A DNA stretch of 64,000 nucleotides from an uncultured delta proteobacterium (GTDB lineage Bacteria; Desulfobacterota; Desulfomonilia; UBA1062). The translations under genes and the position numbers were made by a program. Numbering within the stretch: the first letter of the stretch is position 1; each line of letters starts with the position of its first letter. The stretch is taken from the NCBI GenBank assembly GCA_963798485.1, contig CAWCTR010000004.1, positions 160,001-224,000 on the forward strand. Reading direction: 5' to 3'. Shown one piece after another: positions 23,837 through 30,067 of the stretch. The notes under the pieces were generated by a model, which saw nothing but the letters and a program-made list of their open reading frames with translations, was not told the origin of the DNA and did not search any database.

Positions 23837-24170
23837 CTACATTTCCTTCTTCTTGATGATCTTTCTCATCTGGGTGGAATGGGCCAGGACATCACCGGCT
23901 GTCATGGCAGCTCCAACATGTACTGCTTCCATCATCTCATCGCTTGAAACGCCAAGCGAGAGGCACTTATTGGTGTATGCATCAATGCAATAGGGACAAT
24001 GGCGTACGGTTGCCACGGTAAGGGCGATCAATGCCTTTTCCCGTTCGGTCAGTACACCAGACAGTGGCCTGGGTGTAGTACTCAAAGAACTTCTTGCCCT
24101 GTTCCGGCGCATACTCTGTGATGTTCGGGAAGTCCGCCAGATCCTTGGGCTCATAGTAGTTATCCGACAT
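23837..24170 (-). pseudogene. ArsS-associated peroxidase-like (AhpD/CMD family) protein, +1 frameshift near 24062
   Basis: MSDNYYEPKDLADFPNITEYAPEQGKKFFEYY joins LTEREKALIALTVATVRHCPYCIDAY...EMMEAVHV in another frame; RBS AAGGAGG. Confidence 0.85.
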
Positions 24171-24344: not shown

Positions 24345-25817
24345 TCAGCCACCAACTTCAGGCAGGCTGCACGCCCTGCCTTTGAGGTTGAAGAGCAGGC
24401 GGAGTACGGTCTTGGTCTTTTCCGAAAAGATCTTCGATGCGAATAGGTCGCCTGCAACGCGCTTGGAGATTTCAGACATGGTAGGGTAGATATGCACTGT
24501 GCCCGCCATGGTTGAAAGTTTAATACCAGCAGCCATGGACACTATCCACTCATGGATGAGCTCTCCCGCATGCGCCCCGATGATTTGACAGCCAAGCAGA
24601 GAGCCTTTCGGGCTCACGAGCATCTTAATCTTGCCCAACGTCTCTCCCTCTGCAAGTGCCCGGTCGTTATCTACAAAGTGCTCTTCGATGACGCGGTACC
24701 CGGTGCCTTCTTTCTGGGCGCGTTTTTCATTGAGCCCGATGCTCGCGACCTCAGGGTCTGTGTAGGTGCACCACCCGATCTTTGAATAGTCCGCCTTCCT
24801 AGGCAGGCGGAGCACGGCGTTGGTGAGAGCGATCCCGCCTTCATAGCCAGCAACGTGGGTGAATGGCATGACCCCGTTGATGTCTCCGCACGCATAGATA
24901 TGGCCGATGTTGGTCTTCAGTCGGTCGTTTGTGAGGATGCCCCTGGAGGTATACTTCACCCCAGCGGCATCGAGATTAAGACCTTCAATATTTGGTTTGC
25001 GTCCAGCTGCCACGAGAATGGCATCCCCTTCGATGACTTGGGTTGGTCCCTCCCCCTTTGAAGGCCCAACAGTCAGTGCAATCATTCCGCCATTTGATTC
25101 TGCTCTGATAGCCTTGGTATCGGTGTGGATTTCCACACCCTCGGCAACAAGTCGCTCTTTCAGGATGTCAGCGAGGTCAGCATCTTCAGGGCCTAGGATC
25201 TGGCCCATGAATTCAACAACGATAACTTTCGCTCCCAGACGTGCAAATGACTGGGCCAGCTCCAGGCCGATAGGTCCACCACCCAGCACGATGAGGCACC
25301 TGGGGAGCTTCCTCTGAGAGAATACGGTCTCGTTGGTCCAGAACGCCACACTACTCAATCCCTCTACCGGAGGCAGGGCAGGGCTCGACCCGGTGGCGAT
25401 GATCCAGCTCTTTGCCGAGATGCGTTCACCATCAAGGTTTATTACATGGTCATCCACAAAGGCAGGGCTCCCGAAGCGGACGAGCGCCCCGAGAGAGCAG
25501 AACCGTTCGGCAGAATCGTGCTGCTGGATCTTCTCGATGACCGCGTATACCCGGTCCATGACTGCACCGAGATCGACAGGGGGAAGCAACAGTTCCGGCA
25601 GACCGAATTCTTTGGATCTTTTTGCCTGTGCCCATACCCGTGCAGTGCGGATGAGTGTCTTTGACGGAACGCAGCCCACATGGAGGCAATCTCCCCCAAG
25701 CTTGTCTGTTTTCTCTATAAGGATGGTCTTTGCCCCGAACTGTGCGCTGCCTGCCGCGGCTGTCAGCCCTGCAGCGCCTCCGCCAATAATCCCGAGATCA
25801 TAATCAAAGTTTGGCAT
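24345..25817 (-). CDS. MerA/dihydrolipoyl dehydrogenase-like pyridine nucleotide-disulfide oxidoreductase
   Basis: GGGAAG, GGDCLHVGCVPSK, GGGPIG, GDING and HIYPT motifs. Has a single C-terminal Cys (GRAC), not the MerA CC pair. Confidence 0.9.
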   Translation of the reverse strand: MPNFDYDLGIIGGGAAGLTAAAGSAQFGAKTILIEKTDKLGGDCLHVGCVPSKTLIRTARVWAQAKRSKEFGLPELLLPPVDLGAVMDRVYAVIEKIQQHDSAERFCSLGALVRFGSPAFVDDHVINLDGERISAKSWIIATGSSPALPPVEGLSSVAFWTNETVFSQRKLPRCLIVLGGGPIGLELAQSFARLGAKVIVVEFMGQILGPEDADLADILKERLVAEGVEIHTDTKAIRAESNGGMIALTVGPSKGEGPTQVIEGDAILVAAGRKPNIEGLNLDAAGVKYTSRGILTNDRLKTNIGHIYACGDINGVMPFTHVAGYEGGIALTNAVLRLPRKADYSKIGWCTYTDPEVASIGLNEKRAQKEGTGYRVIEEHFVDNDRALAEGETLGKIKMLVSPKGSLLGCQIIGAHAGELIHEWIVSMAAGIKLSTMAGTVHIYPTMSEISKRVAGDLFASKIFSEKTKTVLRLLFNLKGRACSLPEVGG

Positions 25818-26024: not shown

Positions 26025-26177
26025 ATGGCCAGGGTGAGTTCAAATGCATTGGATACTGGTGATCAATTCCCTTTATTAAATCTGCAGATGGTAAATGGAG
26101 ATATTTTCAAACTCCCGGATGATCATGATTATTCTGTCTCTCTCAATGGAGAAGAAGCGATAGCGGAGAACCAATGA
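26025..26177 (+). pseudogene. Internally deleted AhpC/TSA (redoxin) family gene remnant
   Basis: GGAGG RBS; MARVSSNALDTGDQFPLLNLQMVNGDIFKLPDD resembles a redoxin N-terminus. Its stop overlaps the next start (ATGA). Confidence 0.55.
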
Positions 26178-26875
26178 AAAAGAAGATAGCATTACTCATT
26201 ATCATTGCCCTCGCGATCGGCATATTTTACTATTTGGATCTCGGAAGATACCTCACACTTGAAAGCCTCAAGACAAACAGAGATTACCTCCTTAATTACT
26301 ATTCAAACCACATGCTCATCTTCATAGTGAGCTACATCGCCATCTATACTATGCAGACCGCTTTTTCCCTGCCTGGGGCGGCCATTCTTACTCTGGCTGG
26401 TGGAGCCGTATTCGGGGCGCTAATGGGAACGATATGGGTGAATATAGGGGCCACGATAGGGGCTGTCTTGGCATTTCTCCTGGCTCGCAATCTGCTGCGG
26501 GACTGGGTGGTAAAAAAATTCGGCAAACAAATGGAGGCCCTGGATAAGGGACTCAGTGAAAGTGGGATGTCATACCTTCTTTTTTTGCGACTAGTCCCAC
26601 TCTTTCCGTTTTTCCTCGTCAACCTTGCCTGCGGGATCACGGGCCTGCAGCTGAGGACCTACATCATAGGTACCATGGTGGGGATTCTTCCAGGAAGCTT
26701 CGTCTATGCGAATGCAGGTGCGAGCATTGCATCCATCAATACCATGCGCGATGTTGCGAGCCCCCGTGTTCTCATCTCATTTGCGCTCCTTGGGTTTTTT
26801 GCATTGCTCCCAACAGTCTACAAGAAGATCAAGGCATCCCTTCAAATGAAGGGGCGGTCGGGACCTTCTACTTGA
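26174..26875 (+). CDS. TVP38/TMEM64 (VTT/DedA) family membrane protein
   Basis: SLPGAAILTLAGGAVFG, YLLFLRLVPLFPFFLVNL and GILPGSFVYANAG motifs. Confidence 0.92.
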   Translation: MKKKIALLIIIALAIGIFYYLDLGRYLTLESLKTNRDYLLNYYSNHMLIFIVSYIAIYTMQTAFSLPGAAILTLAGGAVFGALMGTIWVNIGATIGAVLAFLLARNLLRDWVVKKFGKQMEALDKGLSESGMSYLLFLRLVPLFPFFLVNLACGITGLQLRTYIIGTMVGILPGSFVYANAGASIASINTMRDVASPRVLISFALLGFFALLPTVYKKIKASLQMKGRSGPST

Positions 26876-26940: not shown

Positions 26941-28013
26941 TTATTTTTCAAACAGTTTAAGGTACTGGCCGTATCCCTCCTTTTGCAGGTCTTCCTTGGG
27001 GATGAACCGCAAGGCAGCCGAGTTCATGCAATAGCGCAGTCCCGTAGGAGGTGGGCCATCATTGAATACATGCCCAATATGAGAATCTGCATGTTTGCTC
27101 CTGACCTCTGTCCTTGTCGTGAACAGGGTATTGTCCTGCTTCTCCACGATATTGCCGGGCTCCAGAGGCCGGGTAAAGCTTGGCCAGCCCGTACCTGAAT
27201 CATACTTGTCCTTTGAGCTGAACAGGGGCTCACCTGAGAGATATCAACATAGATCCCTTCATGTTTGTTGTTCCAATATGCATTATCAAAGGCCGGTTCC
27301 GTACCTTTTTTCTGGGTTACCTTGAACTGCATCGGGGTGAGCTTCTTTTTCAGGACCTCTACACTCGGCTTGGTGTACGAACCTGTTTCGGCCTTTGCGG
27401 GCACATATTCCCTGTCTTTCCCCCAGGCCTTGTCAAGGAACTGGTCACGACCTGATCTGTACCGGTAGTACTTATACCGGATGGGGTTTTTCTTATAGTA
27501 ATACTGGTGGTATTCTTCTGCCTTATAGAATGGGCCAGCCTTCACGATCTCGGTGACGATGGGTTTTGTGAACCTGCCGGATTTTGCCAGCCGATCCCTG
27601 GACTCCTCGGCGAGCCTCTTTTGCTCATCGTTATGGTAAAAGATGGCGCTTCTATACTGGTTTCCCCTGTCCACAAACTGCCCTCCGGCATCGGTCGGGT
27701 CTATCTGCCGCCAGAACACCTCCAGCAGGTCTGCATACGATATCTTTGATGGATCATAGGTTATCTGGATGGATTCGGCGTGGCCCGTTGTCCCTGATGA
27801 GTTCTCCTTATAGGTGGGGTTAACGGTATGTCCCCCGGTATATCCCGAGAGAACCTCCTTCACTCCAGGGAGCTTATCAAAAGGATGCACCATGCACCAG
27901 AAACATCCCCCGGCAAAGGTGGCCAGTTCATATTTTGTGTTAGCTGCGTTCCCGGTATATATTGGCAATACAAGCAACATGGCTATAAATCCTTTCATGA
28001 TTTTACTGACCAT
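26941..28013 (-). pseudogene. msrAB: Exported bifunctional methionine sulfoxide reductase MsrA-MsrB, 1-nt deletion near 27240
   Basis: Signal peptide; GGCFWC, AEEYHQ and GTEPAF...EGIYVDI. After a -1 shift the frame reads [21 protein letters not shown]...[22 protein letters not shown]. Confidence 0.93.
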
Positions 28014-28180
28014 CTTTTATTCCTCCTCAATCATTGGAAACTTATATATGTTTATATAAGGTTGCCTTGTGTAAAAAGAAACCCATACCTTAACTATATT
28101 TAACTTTCAGAGATCATAAAACTGAGATGATACGCCCCGGACATTCATTCACCCCATTCCCAGTTTGACAGGAATGATGC

Positions 28181-28489
28181 TCACGGATTTCCTCCCAGTG
28201 TCTTCTTATATGTTCCTGCCTTCTTCAACGCCCTTTCCATTTCGTCAATGGTTACCTTTGTCGGGTCATAGAAAACGGTGTTTATTTCTCGAAAAAAATG
28301 GAATCCTTTTTCAACCCTTTTTACACCTGGAAGCCTCTCCAAGGCCTCTTTGCCTACGTCATATCAAGCCACGACAAATACCACTTTTTTCTCTGCATCA
28401 GAAGCCTGCGCAGTCCAATGTACCCCGCACAGAAGTAAAAGCAGTACCCCAGCGATGGCAAACTTCCTCATAAGAACGTCCTTATTCAT
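28181..28489 (-). CDS. Putative exported selenoprotein (102 aa, Sec42), HMA/MsrA-like small fold
   Basis: AAGGAG RBS, signal peptide ending AQA and in-frame TGA at 28364-28366. The frame then stays open for 60 codons: KVVFVVA-U-YDVGKEALERLPGVKRVEKGFHFFREINTVFYDPTKVTIDEMERALKKAGTY. SECIS-like hairpin follows the UGA. Confidence 0.75.
28330..28348 (-). promoter_or_regulatory. Candidate bacterial SECIS element
   Basis: GAGGCCU-UGGAG-AGGCUUC stem-loop starting 16 nt 3' of the UGA; G-containing loop. Confidence 0.6.
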
Positions 28490-28742
28490 GGATCACGCTC
28501 CTTTTGTTCGGGTTTCGGAGTCTCCCTAAAAGAATAATGTTCTTATTTGAAAAAACCAGAGAGAATAAAGACGTCCATTAATATTGCAGGACTTCAGCTA
28601 TACTATTAATTGCAGTTGATGCCTATTCCGTATTTCCCAATTCGCAAAAGGTAATTCTTGTTAATAAAAAAGAGGCAATGATACTAACTATCTGAGGGGT
28701 ATCTTGACAATCAAGAAGTCATCATTAATTTATACTCATTCT

Positions 28743-30067
28743 CACTACTGTCCCAACGTTAATCGAATAAAGTCAATTGGTTGCTGGGTGCTATGTCTGG
28801 AATCATGCAATCTGAATCTGTAAGTGCTTGTATTATAGGAGTCTTCTCGAAAAGAGTGACACTCAGAATCTGTAGAATTGTGTAGAGGCTGCTGTGGATT
28901 TTCAGGGTTTTCTTGACGATCGCTACAAGCACATAAACCGAGATGGCGATCCAGATCTGAGTTTTCACGGCATTCTCTGTAGTACCGTAGAAAGCCTTGA
29001 TCCTGAGATGCTGCTTGATCCATTTGAAAAACAACTCGATCTGCCAGCGACATCGATACAGTTCCGCAATGGTCAATGCCGACAGGGTGAAGTTGTTGGT
29101 CAGAAATACAAGGCGTCTGTTGTTGGCCTTGTCGAAGAAGCGTATCCGACGAAGCTTTCCCGGATAGTCCTTCCGAGCATAAAAATTCTTTGTGGTGATA
29201 ACCTGGTCGCACTGCATCCCGATGGACTTGTCGACGGGTAGAGAATAGAGGCGTCTGAACCGGAAGTTGTCTTTGGCTCTGATGAGAAAGAAGGCCCCAG
29301 ACTGATGAATTGCATGAAGTCTGGTAAAGTCGATATAGCCCCGATCCATGATATAGATGGCTCCTGCTTCGATAAGAAGATGGTCGAGGATGTTCACTTC
29401 GTGAACCTTGCCATGGGTAATAATCACCACTGTAGGTATGCTTCCCCGGAGATCCAGGAGGGTATGGAGCTTTATTGCTCCTTTGTGCTTTCTGAACTCT
29501 GCCCATGGAAAGAGTGACTGGCAGAGGTCTATGACCGTTGCGTCCAGTGCGTACACCGTTTGATCCAGTTCCACACCGAAGGACTCGCCTGTATAGAGCT
29601 TTCTGGCTCTGGCAATCAGAATCTGGGCGAAATCGGCATAGATCCTCCAGTCCCGCACTTGGTTGGCATTGGCCAAGGTATTTCTTGAGACCTTGCTGCG
29701 GATACCCAGGTGATACAGCTTGGTCTGTGCCGCCCGCAAACATGCTTGGATGTCTCGCAGGCTTTCTCGGTAGGTCAACTGAGCAAAGGCCATGCAGAGA
29801 TACTGGTCCCAGCAGGAGAAGCTCTTGATCTTGTAGTTGCCGTTGTAGCGTTTTACGCATTGGCGAAAATCGTGGATAGGCACAAAGTCCATCAATTGGG
29901 AAAACATGGTGCGACCAGAGTTCATCAGCCATCTCCTTCTGCAGGGATGCAGAAGTATGGCCTTCTCCAGAAATTATTTCCAAATCGATTACAATCATTT
30001 CTCCCCGTTAACCTTCTTCATGACTTGATCTACATCCTTTTACCTGTTAAACGTTGGGACAGTAGTG
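28743..30067 (-). mobile_element. IS4 family insertion sequence
   Basis: Perfect 18-bp IR CACTACTGTCCCAACGTT; 9-bp target duplication ACTCATTCT (28734..28742 and 30068..30076). Confidence 0.97.
28759..29925 (-). CDS. IS4 family transposase (DUF4372 + DDE)
   Basis: AQLTYRESLRDI, LDATVIDL, MDRGY and YRCRWQIELFFKWIKQ (YREK) motifs. Confidence 0.96.
   Translation of the reverse strand: MNSGRTMFSQLMDFVPIHDFRQCVKRYNGNYKIKSFSCWDQYLCMAFAQLTYRESLRDIQACLRAAQTKLYHLGIRSKVSRNTLANANQVRDWRIYADFAQILIARARKLYTGESFGVELDQTVYALDATVIDLCQSLFPWAEFRKHKGAIKLHTLLDLRGSIPTVVIITHGKVHEVNILDHLLIEAGAIYIMDRGYIDFTRLHAIHQSGAFFLIRAKDNFRFRRLYSLPVDKSIGMQCDQVITTKNFYARKDYPGKLRRIRFFDKANNRRLVFLTNNFTLSALTIAELYRCRWQIELFFKWIKQHLRIKAFYGTTENAVKTQIWIAISVYVLVAIVKKTLKIHSSLYTILQILSVTLFEKTPIIQALTDSDCMIPDIAPSNQLTLFD

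What the first reader, a model, noticed from the sequence alone, without database searches (positions are those of the whole stretch)
28181..28489. Unannotated exported selenoprotein candidate (VA-U-YDVG) upstream of periplasmic MsrAB
Seen: the ORF track misses this gene because of an in-frame TGA at 28364-28366. It has an AAGGAG RBS and a signal peptide ending AQA. It then reads SDAEKKVVFVVA-U-YDVGKEALERLPGVKRVEKGFHFFREINTVFYDPTKVTIDEMERALKKAGTYKKTLGGNP, with a 7-bp hairpin and G-rich loop starting 16 nt after the UGA. Known: bacterial SECIS hairpins lie just 3' of the UGA. The pattern strand-C-helix-LPGV..V..G...V.YDP..T is shared by HMA domains and the MsrA N-terminus. The neighbouring MsrA reads ATFAGGCFW...[12 protein letters not shown]...ITYDPSKIS, which puts Sec at the catalytic or metal-binding Cys position. 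Inference: a minimal periplasmic Sec redox or metal-handling protein co-transcribed with msrAB. I cannot name a described family for it.
Basis: partly seen in the sequence, partly recalled or inferred. Interest (0 to 1): 0.9.

Follow-up and report, generated by a model that had tools for sequence, protein, structure and literature searches.

The report
Exported mini selenoprotein beside MsrAB
This is a real but uncatalogued gene for a small exported selenium-containing protein, built like a stripped-down methionine-sulfoxide reductase or metal chaperone, that travels with enzymes repairing oxidised proteins outside the cytoplasm.

Summary
A 102-codon gene on the minus strand (28489..28181) has an AAGGAG ribosome site, a signal peptide ending AQA and an in-frame TGA at codon 42.

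The TGA is not damage:
- A second copy in the same genome and copies in two congeners keep it.
- In 64 genes from public genomes the column is TGA in 50, Cys in 13, CGA in 1 and never TGG. All 31 metagenome loci that hold the column read TGA.
- A 6-8 bp hairpin with a G-first loop follows the TGA in Sec forms (6.5 of 8 pairs) but not in Cys forms (3.1 of 8), with compensatory changes.
- The genome has selA, selB, selD and tRNA-Sec.

The mature ~70-residue domain folds as a beta-alpha-beta-beta-alpha-beta unit. Its best structural matches are HMA metallochaperones (Z 10.9). Profile comparison relates it equally to HMA and to the N-terminal core of MsrA, with Sec on MsrA's catalytic Cys.

No Pfam or NCBIfam model reaches its cut-off, and the family is not in a 2026 inventory of 119 selenoprotein families.

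In 41 of 64 loci an exported MsrA/MsrB or sulfite-oxidase-family gene lies within 300 bp.

Most likely it is a periplasmic redox selenoprotein working with these reductases. A metal-handling role is the main rival.

The parts
28498..28503 (-). Shine-Dalgarno AAGGAG, 8 nt upstream of the ATG
   Evidence: Read directly from the sequence. It is conserved in the second genomic copy.
28181..28489 (-). Whole coding sequence: 102 codons plus stop TGA, with Sec at codon 42
   Evidence: Translation with TGA=U. The second copy is 82% identical and keeps the same TGA. There are 62 further homologous genes. dN/dS is 0.28-0.36.
28403..28489 (-). Predicted signal peptide (residues 1-29, ending AQA)
   Evidence: Sequence features. 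AF2 gives a low-confidence N-terminal helix at residues 4-21. Every family member has a comparable hydrophobic N-terminus. This is an inference; no predictor was run.
28364..28366 (-). In-frame UGA read as selenocysteine (residue 42)
   Evidence: In 64 genome genes the column is TGA 50, TGT/TGC 13, CGA 1. It is TGA in 31 of 31 metagenome loci that hold the column. It aligns with the catalytic Cys of MsrA.
28330..28348 (-). SECIS-like hairpin: 8-bp stem and GGA loop, starting 15 nt after the UGA
   Evidence: Folds. In alignment A3, 81% of cells pair, against 27-58% when the partners are slid, with compensatory changes at three pairs. Sec forms pair 6.5 of 8 positions and Cys forms 3.1 of 8. The selD gene of the same genome has a like hairpin.
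28184..28402 (-). Mature domain (residues 30-102): beta1 34-40, Sec42 at the N-cap of alpha1 43-51, beta2 56-64, beta3 67-74, alpha2 81-91, beta4 94-99
   Evidence: AF2 model with pLDDT above 90 over residues 31-100. Foldseek and VIA-align match HMA domains, Z up to 10.9. hhalign relates it to MsrA and to HMA.
26941..28013 (-). Downstream exported msrAB (MsrA plus MsrB fusion), 167 nt after the selenoprotein stop. In this window it is broken by a 1-nt deletion near 27240.
   Evidence: ORFs. Comparison with the intact copies in L002 and L031. Pfam PMSR and SelR match the orthologous neighbours.

Best explanation
The locus encodes a genuine selenoprotein of a family that is not yet curated.

Shown: UGA codon 42 is decoded as selenocysteine with the help of a small hairpin 15-37 nt downstream, in a host that has the full Sec machinery.

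Inferred from sequence: the product is exported by a cleavable signal peptide.

Shown by model and profile comparison: the mature ~70-residue domain is a compact beta-alpha-beta-beta-alpha-beta (ferredoxin-like) unit, remotely related both to HMA metallochaperone domains and to the N-terminal core of MsrA. The single Sec (Cys in some lineages) sits at the N-cap of helix 1. That is the position of MsrA's catalytic Cys and of the second Cys of the HMA CxxC.

Inferred mechanism, about 0.5: the selenol is a redox-active nucleophile. It cycles between selenol and selenenic acid, selenenylsulfide or diselenide. It works in the periplasm with the exported MsrA/MsrB or sulfite-oxidase-family molybdoenzyme encoded next to it. 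It could be a trans-acting reductant or resolving group for their oxidised states, or a minimal sulfoxide or oxidant-reactive module of its own. The module belongs to an oxidative-stress regulon: PerR, katG and a peroxiredoxin-like ORF (named from its sequence, no family scan) here, and a two-component system in many other genomes.
For: Sec decoding:
- The TGA is conserved in the paralogue and in congeners.
- In 64 genome genes the column is TGA 50, Cys 13, CGA 1. It is TGA in 31 of 31 metagenome loci that hold it.
- The hairpin is conserved and covaries. It is present in Sec forms and largely missing in Cys forms. Geometry is similar to the selD hairpin of the same genome.
- No nucleotide difference occurs in codons 40-58 between the window copy and its two nearest relatives.
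- selA, selB, selD and tRNA-Sec all score above their cut-offs.

Fold and kinship:
- AF2 gives pLDDT above 90 for the domain.
- HMA domains match at Z 9-10.9, rmsd 1.7-2.0 A over 61-70 residues.
- hhalign against MsrA: probability 96-97%, P 2.6e-9 to 2.4e-11, with Sec on the catalytic Cys.
- hhalign against HMA: probability 95-96%, P 3e-9 to 4e-8.

Link to sulfoxide repair:
- An MsrA, MsrB or PF00174 molybdoenzyme gene lies within 300 bp in 41 of 64 loci (40 on the same strand) and within 1.5 kb in 48 of 64. This holds across Desulfomonilia, Nitrospirota, Syntrophales, Desulfobacterales and Geobacter-like lineages.
- Genomes of the window's genus that have the gene carry extra msrAB copies flanking it, on top of the single msrAB found in their congeners.
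- PerR, katG and a peroxiredoxin-like ORF (named from its sequence, no family scan) lie beside it here.

His often precedes Cys in Cys forms (HCYD) and rarely precedes Sec. That would fit a nucleophile needing activation only when it is sulfur, but the pattern is confounded by phylogeny.
Against: - No expression, selenium-incorporation or activity data exist, and no RNA run holds the locus.
- The best structural matches are metallochaperones, not enzymes.
- A known metal-domain neighbour, the YHS (seleno)protein NF041384, lies within 1.5 kb in 8 of 64 loci.
- The MsrA segment carrying the sulfoxide-binding residues, and the whole C-terminal half of MsrA, are missing. MsrA-type catalysis is therefore unlikely as such.
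- A single Sec or Cys cannot perform a classical dithiol-disulfide exchange, and no upstream reductant was identified.
- 51 of 61 related genomes have MsrB (mostly exported MsrAB) but only 3 of 61 have this gene. It is not generally required by periplasmic MsrAB.
- 14 of 64 loci show no Msr or molybdoenzyme gene in the DNA fetched; some of these loci are cut short by contig ends.
- In this window the partner msrAB is frameshifted.
Confidence: 0.6

Rival explanations
1. It is a periplasmic metal-handling protein: an HMA-type chaperone or scavenger in which one selenolate binds a soft metal such as Cu(I) or Hg(II). Binding would probably use two copies, or a partner such as the YHS-domain protein. 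The msr genes are merely co-regulated envelope-stress genes.
For: - Top structural matches are MerP, CopZ and CopA HMA domains, with Foldseek E 3.8e-4 and VIA Z up to 10.9.
- Weak HMM matches: MerP 11 of 62 members, CopZ 10 of 62, and the UxxU metal-binding (seleno)protein NF041115 53 of 62. The PDB profile search gives MerP E 0.0026.
- A YHS (seleno)protein lies directly downstream in several Nitrospirota loci.
- The neighbouring histidine kinases score on heavy-metal sensor models, though below the cut-offs and alongside many other kinase models.
Against: - Pfam HMA matches 0 of 62 members.
- The GMxCxxC loop is replaced by a loop three residues shorter with a single Sec or Cys.
- hhalign against HMA covers only K47-G92 and not the Sec region.
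- No copper ATPase or efflux gene turned up among the neighbours. Pfam-scanned: the two nearest ORFs on each side for 30 of the 64 loci, 119 of 238 ORFs. The only P-type ATPase fragment was in L038.
- The dominant neighbours are sulfoxide reductases.
- Here the island is PerR, katG and a peroxiredoxin-like ORF, which points to peroxide stress.
Confidence: 0.25
2. It is a periplasmic redox sensor or accessory protein of the adjacent two-component system. Oxidation of the Sec or Cys would modulate the histidine kinase, which then switches on the msr genes.
For: - A response regulator plus histidine kinase pair lies within 1.5 kb in 26 of 64 loci.
- In 10 of 13 Cys-form loci the gene follows the kinase gene, by 56-170 nt in the loci listed.
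Against: - Thirty-eight of 64 loci have no such pair within 1.5 kb, including this window and its paralogue, where a PerR-type regulator is nearby instead.
- No contact with the kinase was tested.
Confidence: 0.1
3. It is not a selenoprotein. Either the TGA is a nonsense mutation or sequencing error in a decaying gene, or TGA is read as Trp or read through.
For: - The window's copy of the island looks damaged: a 1-nt deletion in msrAB, a 2-nt deletion in the CMD/AhpD-like gene and an IS transposase just upstream.
- Some database proteins show W at the column.
Against: - TGA sits at the same codon in 50 genome genes and 31 metagenome loci, TGG in none, and Cys in 13.
- Both flanks are under purifying selection.
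- The hairpin is conserved and the Sec machinery is complete.
- The gene's own terminator is also TGA, and relatives end with TAG or TAA at the same place, so TGA is an ordinary stop in this host.
Confidence: 0.03

Closest known systems
HMA (heavy-metal-associated) domains: MerP, CopZ, N-terminal domains of CopA (Pfam PF00403)
   Same: Same compact beta-alpha-beta-beta-alpha-beta fold over the whole domain, with Z 9-10.9 and rmsd 1.7-2.0 A. Remote profile similarity over alpha1 to beta4. The reactive residue lies at the start of helix 1. MerP is likewise an exported stand-alone domain (entry title).
   Different: The Pfam HMA model matches none of the 62 members. The GMxCxxC motif is absent: there is one Sec or Cys in a conserved U[YF]DVG, and the loop is three residues shorter. 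The genomic company is sulfoxide reductases rather than metal pumps.
MsrA, peptide methionine-S-sulfoxide reductase (PF01625), including its known selenoprotein form (GUFWG)
   Same: hhalign probability is 96-97%. The alignment runs beta1, catalytic Cys, alpha1, LPGV, beta2, then E.....YDP. Sec42 lies on the catalytic Cys, and invariant Glu68 on the Glu of GHAE. The spacing from the Cys or Sec to LPGV is identical. The gene is physically adjacent to MsrA in many genomes. An exported Sec-MsrA exists in one of the same genomes.
   Different: The domain is about 70 residues instead of about 150. The 17-residue segment (GGHTVNPTY...TGHA) and the whole C-terminal half of MsrA are missing. FW after the Cys is replaced by [YF]D. 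Pfam PMSR matches 1 of 62 members, at E 0.005 only. The aligned Glu is also common in HMA domains, so it does not prove MsrA-type chemistry.
NF041115, UxxU metal-binding (seleno)protein, listed as 'putative mercuric reductase' in the 2026 inventory
   Same: A small selenoprotein of HMA type. 53 of 62 members match weakly, best E 4.7e-9.
   Different: The score is 28.8 bits against a cut-off of 95. That family has two Sec residues in UxxU (Table 1 of PMC13188914); this one has a single Sec and no second Cys or Sec.
NF041383, VPGUxxT family thioredoxin-like (seleno)protein, type 2 (OS_HP5)
   Same: All 62 members match profile positions about 141-207 of 287, best E 1.1e-11. The same profile region also matches MsrA genes. 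A related domain therefore seems to be embedded in that curated selenoprotein family.
   Different: The score is 29.9 bits against a cut-off of 275. There is no thioredoxin-like part and no VPGUxxT motif. I could not fetch a true member to inspect: none in 301 genomes of the phylum or in 5 host genomes.

Membership tests
Bacterial selenoprotein gene (UGA decoded as Sec) | In-frame UGA conserved at the same column in orthologues | tested here: met
   The paralogue and congeners each show 1 TGA. 50 of 64 genome genes read TGA, as do 31 of 31 metagenome loci that hold the column.
Bacterial selenoprotein gene (UGA decoded as Sec) | Cys-containing homologues at the Sec column, with conservation on both sides | tested here: met
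   13 of 64 genome genes read TGT or TGC. 40 of the best 150 representatives have Cys. The alignment is invariant at F38, V40, G46, G55, E68, V72, L88 and T93. dN/dS is 0.28-0.36.
Bacterial selenoprotein gene (UGA decoded as Sec) | SECIS hairpin shortly 3' of the UGA with G in the apical loop (the distance and loop rule is recalled from bSECISearch, not taken from a call) | tested here: met
   An 8-bp stem starts 15 nt after the UGA, with loop GGA. 81% of cells pair, against 27-58% when slid, and three pairs show compensatory changes. Sec forms pair 6.5 of 8 positions and Cys forms 3.1 of 8. The selD control hairpin in the same genome is similar. bSECISearch itself was not available. Rfam has no matching family: 5 chance-level hits.
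Bacterial selenoprotein gene (UGA decoded as Sec) | Host encodes selA, selB, selD and tRNA-Sec | tested here: met
   selA scores 519.5 bits (cut-off 267.9). selB scores 323.9 and 322.6 bits (cut-off 242.25). selD scores 383.3 bits and has its own TGA. tRNA-Sec scores 75.9 bits (gathering score 47).
Bacterial selenoprotein gene (UGA decoded as Sec) | Selenium shown in the protein (75Se labelling or mass spectrometry) | not testable with these tools
   Needs an experiment.
HMA domain (PF00403) | Match to the family model above its gathering score | tested here: not met
   0 of 62 members match at E <= 0.01. The window protein has no HMA hit even at E <= 10.
HMA domain (PF00403) | GMxCxxC metal-binding loop | tested here: not met
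   A single U or C sits in [FY].V.U[YF]DVG, with no second Cys or Sec. For comparison, the HMA alignment A6 is invariant at G, M, C..C.
HMA domain (PF00403) | beta-alpha-beta-beta-alpha-beta fold | tested here: met
   AF2 secondary structure. VIA Z 10.9, rmsd 1.7-2.0 A over 66-68 residues to MerP and HMA7.
MsrA (PF01625) | Match to the family model above its gathering score | tested here: not met
   1 of 62 members matches, at E 0.005. There is only remote profile-profile similarity, probability 96-97%.
MsrA (PF01625) | Catalytic Cys or Sec at the N-terminus of helix 1 (GCFWG-type motif) | tested here: inconclusive
   Sec42 aligns with the catalytic Cys, but the motif is AU[YF]DVG, not G[CU]FW.
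MsrA (PF01625) | Segment with the sulfoxide-binding Tyr/Glu/Tyr residues, and the C-terminal half of the ~150-residue domain (the residue roles are recalled) | tested here: not met
   A 17-residue gap falls opposite GGHTVNPTY...TGHA. The alignment ends at MsrA residue ~100 of 200, and the protein itself ends about 15 residues later.
NF041115 UxxU metal-binding (seleno)protein | Score above the curated cut-off, and a UxxU motif | tested here: not met
   28.8 bits against a cut-off of 95. There is one Sec only.
NF041383 VPGUxxT thioredoxin-like (seleno)protein type 2 | Score above the curated cut-off over the full-length profile | tested here: not met
   29.9 bits against a cut-off of 275. Only profile positions 141-207 of 287 are matched.
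MerP (TIGR02052) | Score above the curated cut-off | tested here: not met
   21.6 bits against a cut-off of 92.55.

The most novel reading that the evidence does not exclude
The family is a minimal, ~70-residue selenol module derived from the common ancestor of MsrA and HMA domains. It acts in the periplasm of anaerobes as the missing redox partner of exported sulfoxide reductases. It would either resolve or reduce their oxidised catalytic centres in trans, or itself reduce sulfoxides or quench oxidants and be recycled by them. It would then be both a new catalytic or relay selenoprotein and a living sequence bridge between a metallochaperone fold and an enzyme fold.
Probability: 0.3. Interest if true: 0.85.

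Novelty: new variant of a known kind. Interest (0 to 1): 0.72.

Why it matters
Gene callers miss this gene systematically:
- Many of the best 150 database representatives are 41-60-residue C-terminal fragments that begin just after the Sec codon.
- 17 of the 57 that hold the motif show a spurious Trp at the Sec column.

It matches no curated model above its cut-off. Its domain IDs are not among the 119 families of the May 2026 inventory, whose Table 1 I read in full.

The family is not rare. At least 394 clusters at 50% identity match at E <= 0.001. It occurs in Desulfobacterota and Nitrospirota (record titles).

Its tight linkage to exported MsrA/MsrB and sulfite-oxidase-family enzymes gives a concrete, testable candidate for an open question. 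How periplasmic methionine-sulfoxide repair is organised in bacteria whose Msr enzymes have no fused thioredoxin domain is not settled (statement of the open question is from my own knowledge).

Its equal profile distance to HMA and to MsrA also makes it a useful bridge for the evolution of the ferredoxin-like fold.

Tried and rejected
1. Thermodynamic test of the hairpin alone: the 71-nt fold scores z = -0.03 against shuffles. I relied on comparative evidence instead.
2. Rfam scan of 28000-28700: five matches, all far below their gathering scores and none a SECIS family.
3. 'W' homologues as evidence of a Trp codon: rejected. They are nearest to loci whose DNA reads TGA, and no TGG locus was found. 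I did not see the DNA of the W proteins themselves.
4. Fused forms: none among proteins of 299-2000 residues (the tool itself calls this weak evidence). Lengths of 182-298 residues were not searched.
5. True NF041383 members, to inspect the shared domain: none in 301 genomes of the phylum or in 5 genomes that hold the family.
6. The idea that the partner MsrB is a special one-Cys type needing an external resolving group: 37 of 37 adjacent MsrB domains read TGWPSF with a catalytic RxC. But so do 30 of 30 MsrB domains from relatives, most of which lack the family. The feature is not discriminating.
8. Sequencing runs: no RNA holder listed, and the best DNA holder has only 0.16 of the sampled words. 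No reads were laid.
9. ESM Atlas with a natural Cys homologue: the nearest clusters are unnamed hypothetical proteins, and an HMA cluster scores only 0.78.
11. Literature searches found no description of the family. Supplementary tables of the selenoproteome papers were not examined and might list it under a generic name.
Full report
**Observation.** The gene lies on the minus strand.
- Under table 11 the region gives two fragments, 28364..28489 (41 aa) and 28181..28342 (53 aa).
- Reading TGA as U joins them into one 102-codon frame from ATG 28489 to the stop TGA at 28183-28181, with U at codon 42 (28366-28364).
- AAGGAG sits 8 nt before the ATG.
- Residues 1-29 have a basic head, a Leu-rich run and AQA, which I read as a signal peptide. 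That is an inference; no predictor was available.
- After the UGA the RNA forms an 8-bp stem with a GGA loop, starting 15 nt downstream.
- On its own the fold is no better than shuffled sequence (z -0.03).

**Is the TGA real and decoded?**
- The same genome (4.3 Mb, 32 contigs, 97.5% complete, 7% contamination) holds a second copy on another contig. It is 82% identical in protein, has TGA at the same codon, and again lies next to msrAB.
- For about 55 nt after the TGA the two copies are identical in DNA, while the rest differs. Codons 40-58 show no difference from either of the two nearest relatives.
- Among 61 related genomes, 3 have the gene (5 copies), each with one TGA.
- A scan of one genome per species returned 64 loci. 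Counting one gene per locus plus the two copies of this genome gives 64 genes. The column is TGA in 50, TGT or TGC in 13 and CGA in 1 (L046, which also has other changes in the motif). Left out of this count are a second, Cys-type gene in L036 and the truncated L091 and L092.
- A metagenome scan returned 37 loci. 31 hold the column and all 31 read TGA.
- TGG was never seen. The W in some database proteins (2 of 6; 17 of the 57 motif-bearing proteins among the best 150) belongs to near relatives of TGA loci. It is best explained by gene calling under a code that reads TGA as Trp. I did not see their DNA.
- dN/dS over the whole gene is 0.28-0.36.

**The hairpin.**
- In 49 TGA sequences aligned from the UGA (A3), the helix at columns 19-26 with 30-37 has 81% of cells paired. 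Sliding the partner by 1-3 columns gives 27-58%.
- Double changes occur at three pairs: C-G to U-A at 25/31 in the window's clade, C-G/A-U at 20/36, and G-C/U-A at 19/37.
- In the window's clade the 25/31 change couples a Gly-to-Arg replacement with a synonymous Leu change. An RNA constraint explains that and a protein constraint does not.
- Sec forms pair 6.5 of 8 positions on average, Cys forms 3.1 of 8.
- The selD gene of the same genome, itself a selenoprotein gene, has a 7-bp stem starting 13 nt after its UGA, with a G-first triloop.
- selA, selB (two copies), selD and tRNA-Sec all score above their cut-offs.

**What the protein is.**
- *Family scans.* Pfam gives nothing for the window protein. 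Across all 62 aligned members it gives one PMSR hit at E 0.005. NCBIfam gives only sub-threshold matches:
  - NF041383 in 62 of 62 members (profile positions 141-207 only; 29.9 bits against a cut-off of 275 for the window protein)
  - NF041115 in 53 of 62
  - MerP in 11, CopZ in 10 and 7
  - an MsrB/A model in 4
- *Structure.* AlphaFold2 on the 62-sequence alignment gives pLDDT above 90 for residues 31-100. The order is beta1 34-40, alpha1 43-51, beta2 56-64, beta3 67-74, alpha2 81-91, beta4 94-99, with Sec42 at the N-cap of alpha1. Foldseek ranks MerP, CopA and CopZ domains first (E 3.8e-4 and weaker); MsrA entries appear at ranks 25, 45 and 48. VIA-align gives Z 9-10.9 and rmsd 1.7-2.0 A over 61-70 residues for HMA domains.
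- *Profile against MsrA.* Against an MsrA alignment built from the neighbouring genes, probability is 97.3% and P 2.4e-11 over 66 columns. After removing signal peptides it is 96.2% and P 2.6e-9 over 54 columns. In both, Sec42 lies on the catalytic Cys of GGCFWC. In the trimmed run the invariant Glu68 lies on the Glu of GHAE, and a 17-residue MsrA segment is absent.
- *Profile against HMA.* Against an HMA alignment from relatives' CopA and CopZ genes, probability is 95-96% and P 3.6e-8 to 3.1e-9 over 44 columns, K47 to G92. This does not reach the Sec.
- *MsrA against HMA.* Probability is 69-71%, with MsrA's catalytic Cys on the second Cys of CxxC.
- *Conclusion.* The family sits between the two and belongs to neither by its defining model or motif. 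The aligned Glu also occurs in HMA domains, so it does not by itself argue for MsrA chemistry.

**Size and annotation state of the family.** A profile search of 1.84 billion representatives found 394 proteins at E <= 0.001 and 116 at <= 1e-10. Of the best 150:
- 57 hold the motif, 40 with Cys and 17 with W.
- 93 do not fit the strict motif. Many of these are 41-60-residue pieces that begin just after the Sec codon.

**Genomic company.**
- Pfam on 119 neighbouring ORFs (of 238 collected: the two nearest on each side, for the first 30 loci) showed the following:
  - MsrA (PMSR) and MsrB (SelR) again and again
  - sulfite-oxidase-family molybdoenzymes (one with a cytochrome b561 gene)
  - response regulator and histidine kinase pairs
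  - YHS-domain proteins
  - VTT/DedA membrane proteins
  - a lactonase-like beta-propeller, DUF7482 and GH15
- A tblastn tally over all 64 genes gives an MsrA, MsrB or PF00174 gene within 300 bp in 41 (40 on the same strand), within 1.5 kb in 48, and within the fetched locus in 50. A two-component pair lies within 1.5 kb in 26.
- The molybdoenzymes stay below the cut-offs of SorA, SoxC, SorT and MsrP. The YHS neighbour passes NF041384, a known (seleno)protein family.
- In this window the neighbours are as follows:
  - msrAB, 167 nt downstream
  - a DedA/VTT gene
  - a MerA/RclA-like flavoprotein disulfide reductase
  - a CMD/AhpD-like gene
  - upstream, an IS transposase, a PerR-type regulator, katG and a peroxiredoxin-like ORF (named from its sequence; no family scan)
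- No terminator-like site was found between the gene and msrAB, but co-transcription is not shown.

**Limits on the functional reading.**
- 51 of 61 related genomes have MsrB, nearly all as exported MsrAB, yet only 3 have this gene.
- In those three, the gene comes with extra msrAB copies flanking it, besides the msrAB that their congeners carry. It is therefore an accessory module with its own reductases, not a general requirement.
- A tree of 62 sequences (67 columns, many forks unresolved) puts the Cys forms in two clades. It nests the window's clade among Nitrospirota sequences. With the patchy occurrence and the IS element, this suggests horizontal spread.
- The adjacent MsrB domains all lack a Cys in the GWPSF motif (37 of 37), but so do 30 of 30 control MsrB domains. 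That says nothing specific.

**Mechanism.**
- Shown: Sec decoding signals, fold, kinship and linkage.
- Inferred: export, and a redox role of Sec42.
- I favour (about 0.5) a redox-active selenol that works with the neighbouring exported sulfoxide or S-oxide enzymes. The reasons are as follows:
  - the linkage holds across phyla
  - Sec occupies MsrA's catalytic position
  - the island here is a peroxide-stress island
  - Cys forms often have a His just before the Cys
- A metal-handling role (about 0.25) is kept alive by the HMA-like structure and the YHS neighbours.
- A sensor role for the two-component system is about 0.1. Damage or recoding is about 0.03.

**Novelty.** I read Table 1 of a May 2026 review in full (PMC13188914, section 7, parts 1 and 2). 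It lists 119 prokaryotic selenoprotein families with their domain IDs. The only IDs that touch this protein are NF041383 and NF041115, both far below their cut-offs.

The 2007 Olavius symbiont paper names six new families (PMC1976440, section 12 and passages). Its figures and supplements were not available, so I cannot exclude that OS_HP1 or OS_HP2 is this family. One of my loci (L064) is from an Olavius Delta 1 symbiont.

Two full-text searches found no description. I therefore rate it a new family-level variant of known kinds (bacterial selenoproteins; HMA- and MsrA-like ferredoxin folds).

**Organism.** The nearest public loci are titled Desulfomonilia bacterium and uncultured delta proteobacterium.

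Noticed in passing
window 26941-28013 (-), near 27240: The msrAB downstream of the selenoprotein gene has a 1-nt deletion relative to the intact copies in L002 and L031. This shifts the frame of the MsrB half. It could be a pseudogene or an assembly indel; I could not tell which.
   Followed up: partly
window 23837-24170 (-), near 24062: The CMD/AhpD-like gene (CPYC motif) is split over two frames by a 2-nt deletion relative to the intact orthologue in L029.
   Followed up: partly
window 28759-29925 (-): A 388-aa transposase-like ORF lies about 270 nt upstream of the selenoprotein gene. Its identity was judged from the ORF alone; no family scan was run on it. In the paralogue and in L031 a second msrAB occupies that side instead.
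   Followed up: no
window 24345-25817 (-) and 26174-26875 (+): A MerA/RclA-like flavoprotein disulfide reductase lies beside a VTT/DedA membrane protein. The same pair follows the family gene in L052, and a VTT gene lies within 5 kb in 11 of 64 loci. This might be a route for reducing power, but that is pure speculation.
   Followed up: partly
whole genome G000 and 14 congeners: No Pfam HMA domain was found at E <= 0.001 in any of the 15 genomes of the window's genus that were searched. All 16 genomes of a sister family have several.
   Followed up: partly
L112 1222-2142 (-): An exported MsrA with Sec in the catalytic motif (GUFWG) occurs in a genome that also holds the new family. The NF041383 profile region 141-245 matches it.
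   Followed up: partly
L035 3314-3793, and likewise L038, L039, L041: A YHS domain (seleno)protein (NF041384, 171.7 bits against a cut-off of 70) lies directly downstream of the family gene in several Nitrospirota loci.
   Followed up: partly
protein P0133 (865 aa): One long protein matched the family profile in 15 separate stretches, all to the part around the Cys motif (KCHCYDV...). It may be a repeat protein built from this motif, or a low-complexity artefact.
   Followed up: no
G000 contigs C27 and C28: Two selB genes with nearly equal scores (323.9 and 322.6 bits, both 648-aa frames) lie on different contigs. With 7% contamination this may be a duplicated or second-strain contig.
   Followed up: no
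L046 4956-5261: This is the only homologue with neither TGA nor Cys. It has CGA (Arg) at the column, the motif is altered to RFGVG, and no msr gene is adjacent. It is probably a decaying copy.
   Followed up: no
L036: One Nitrospirota locus carries both a Sec-type and a Cys-type gene of the family within about 5 kb.
   Followed up: no
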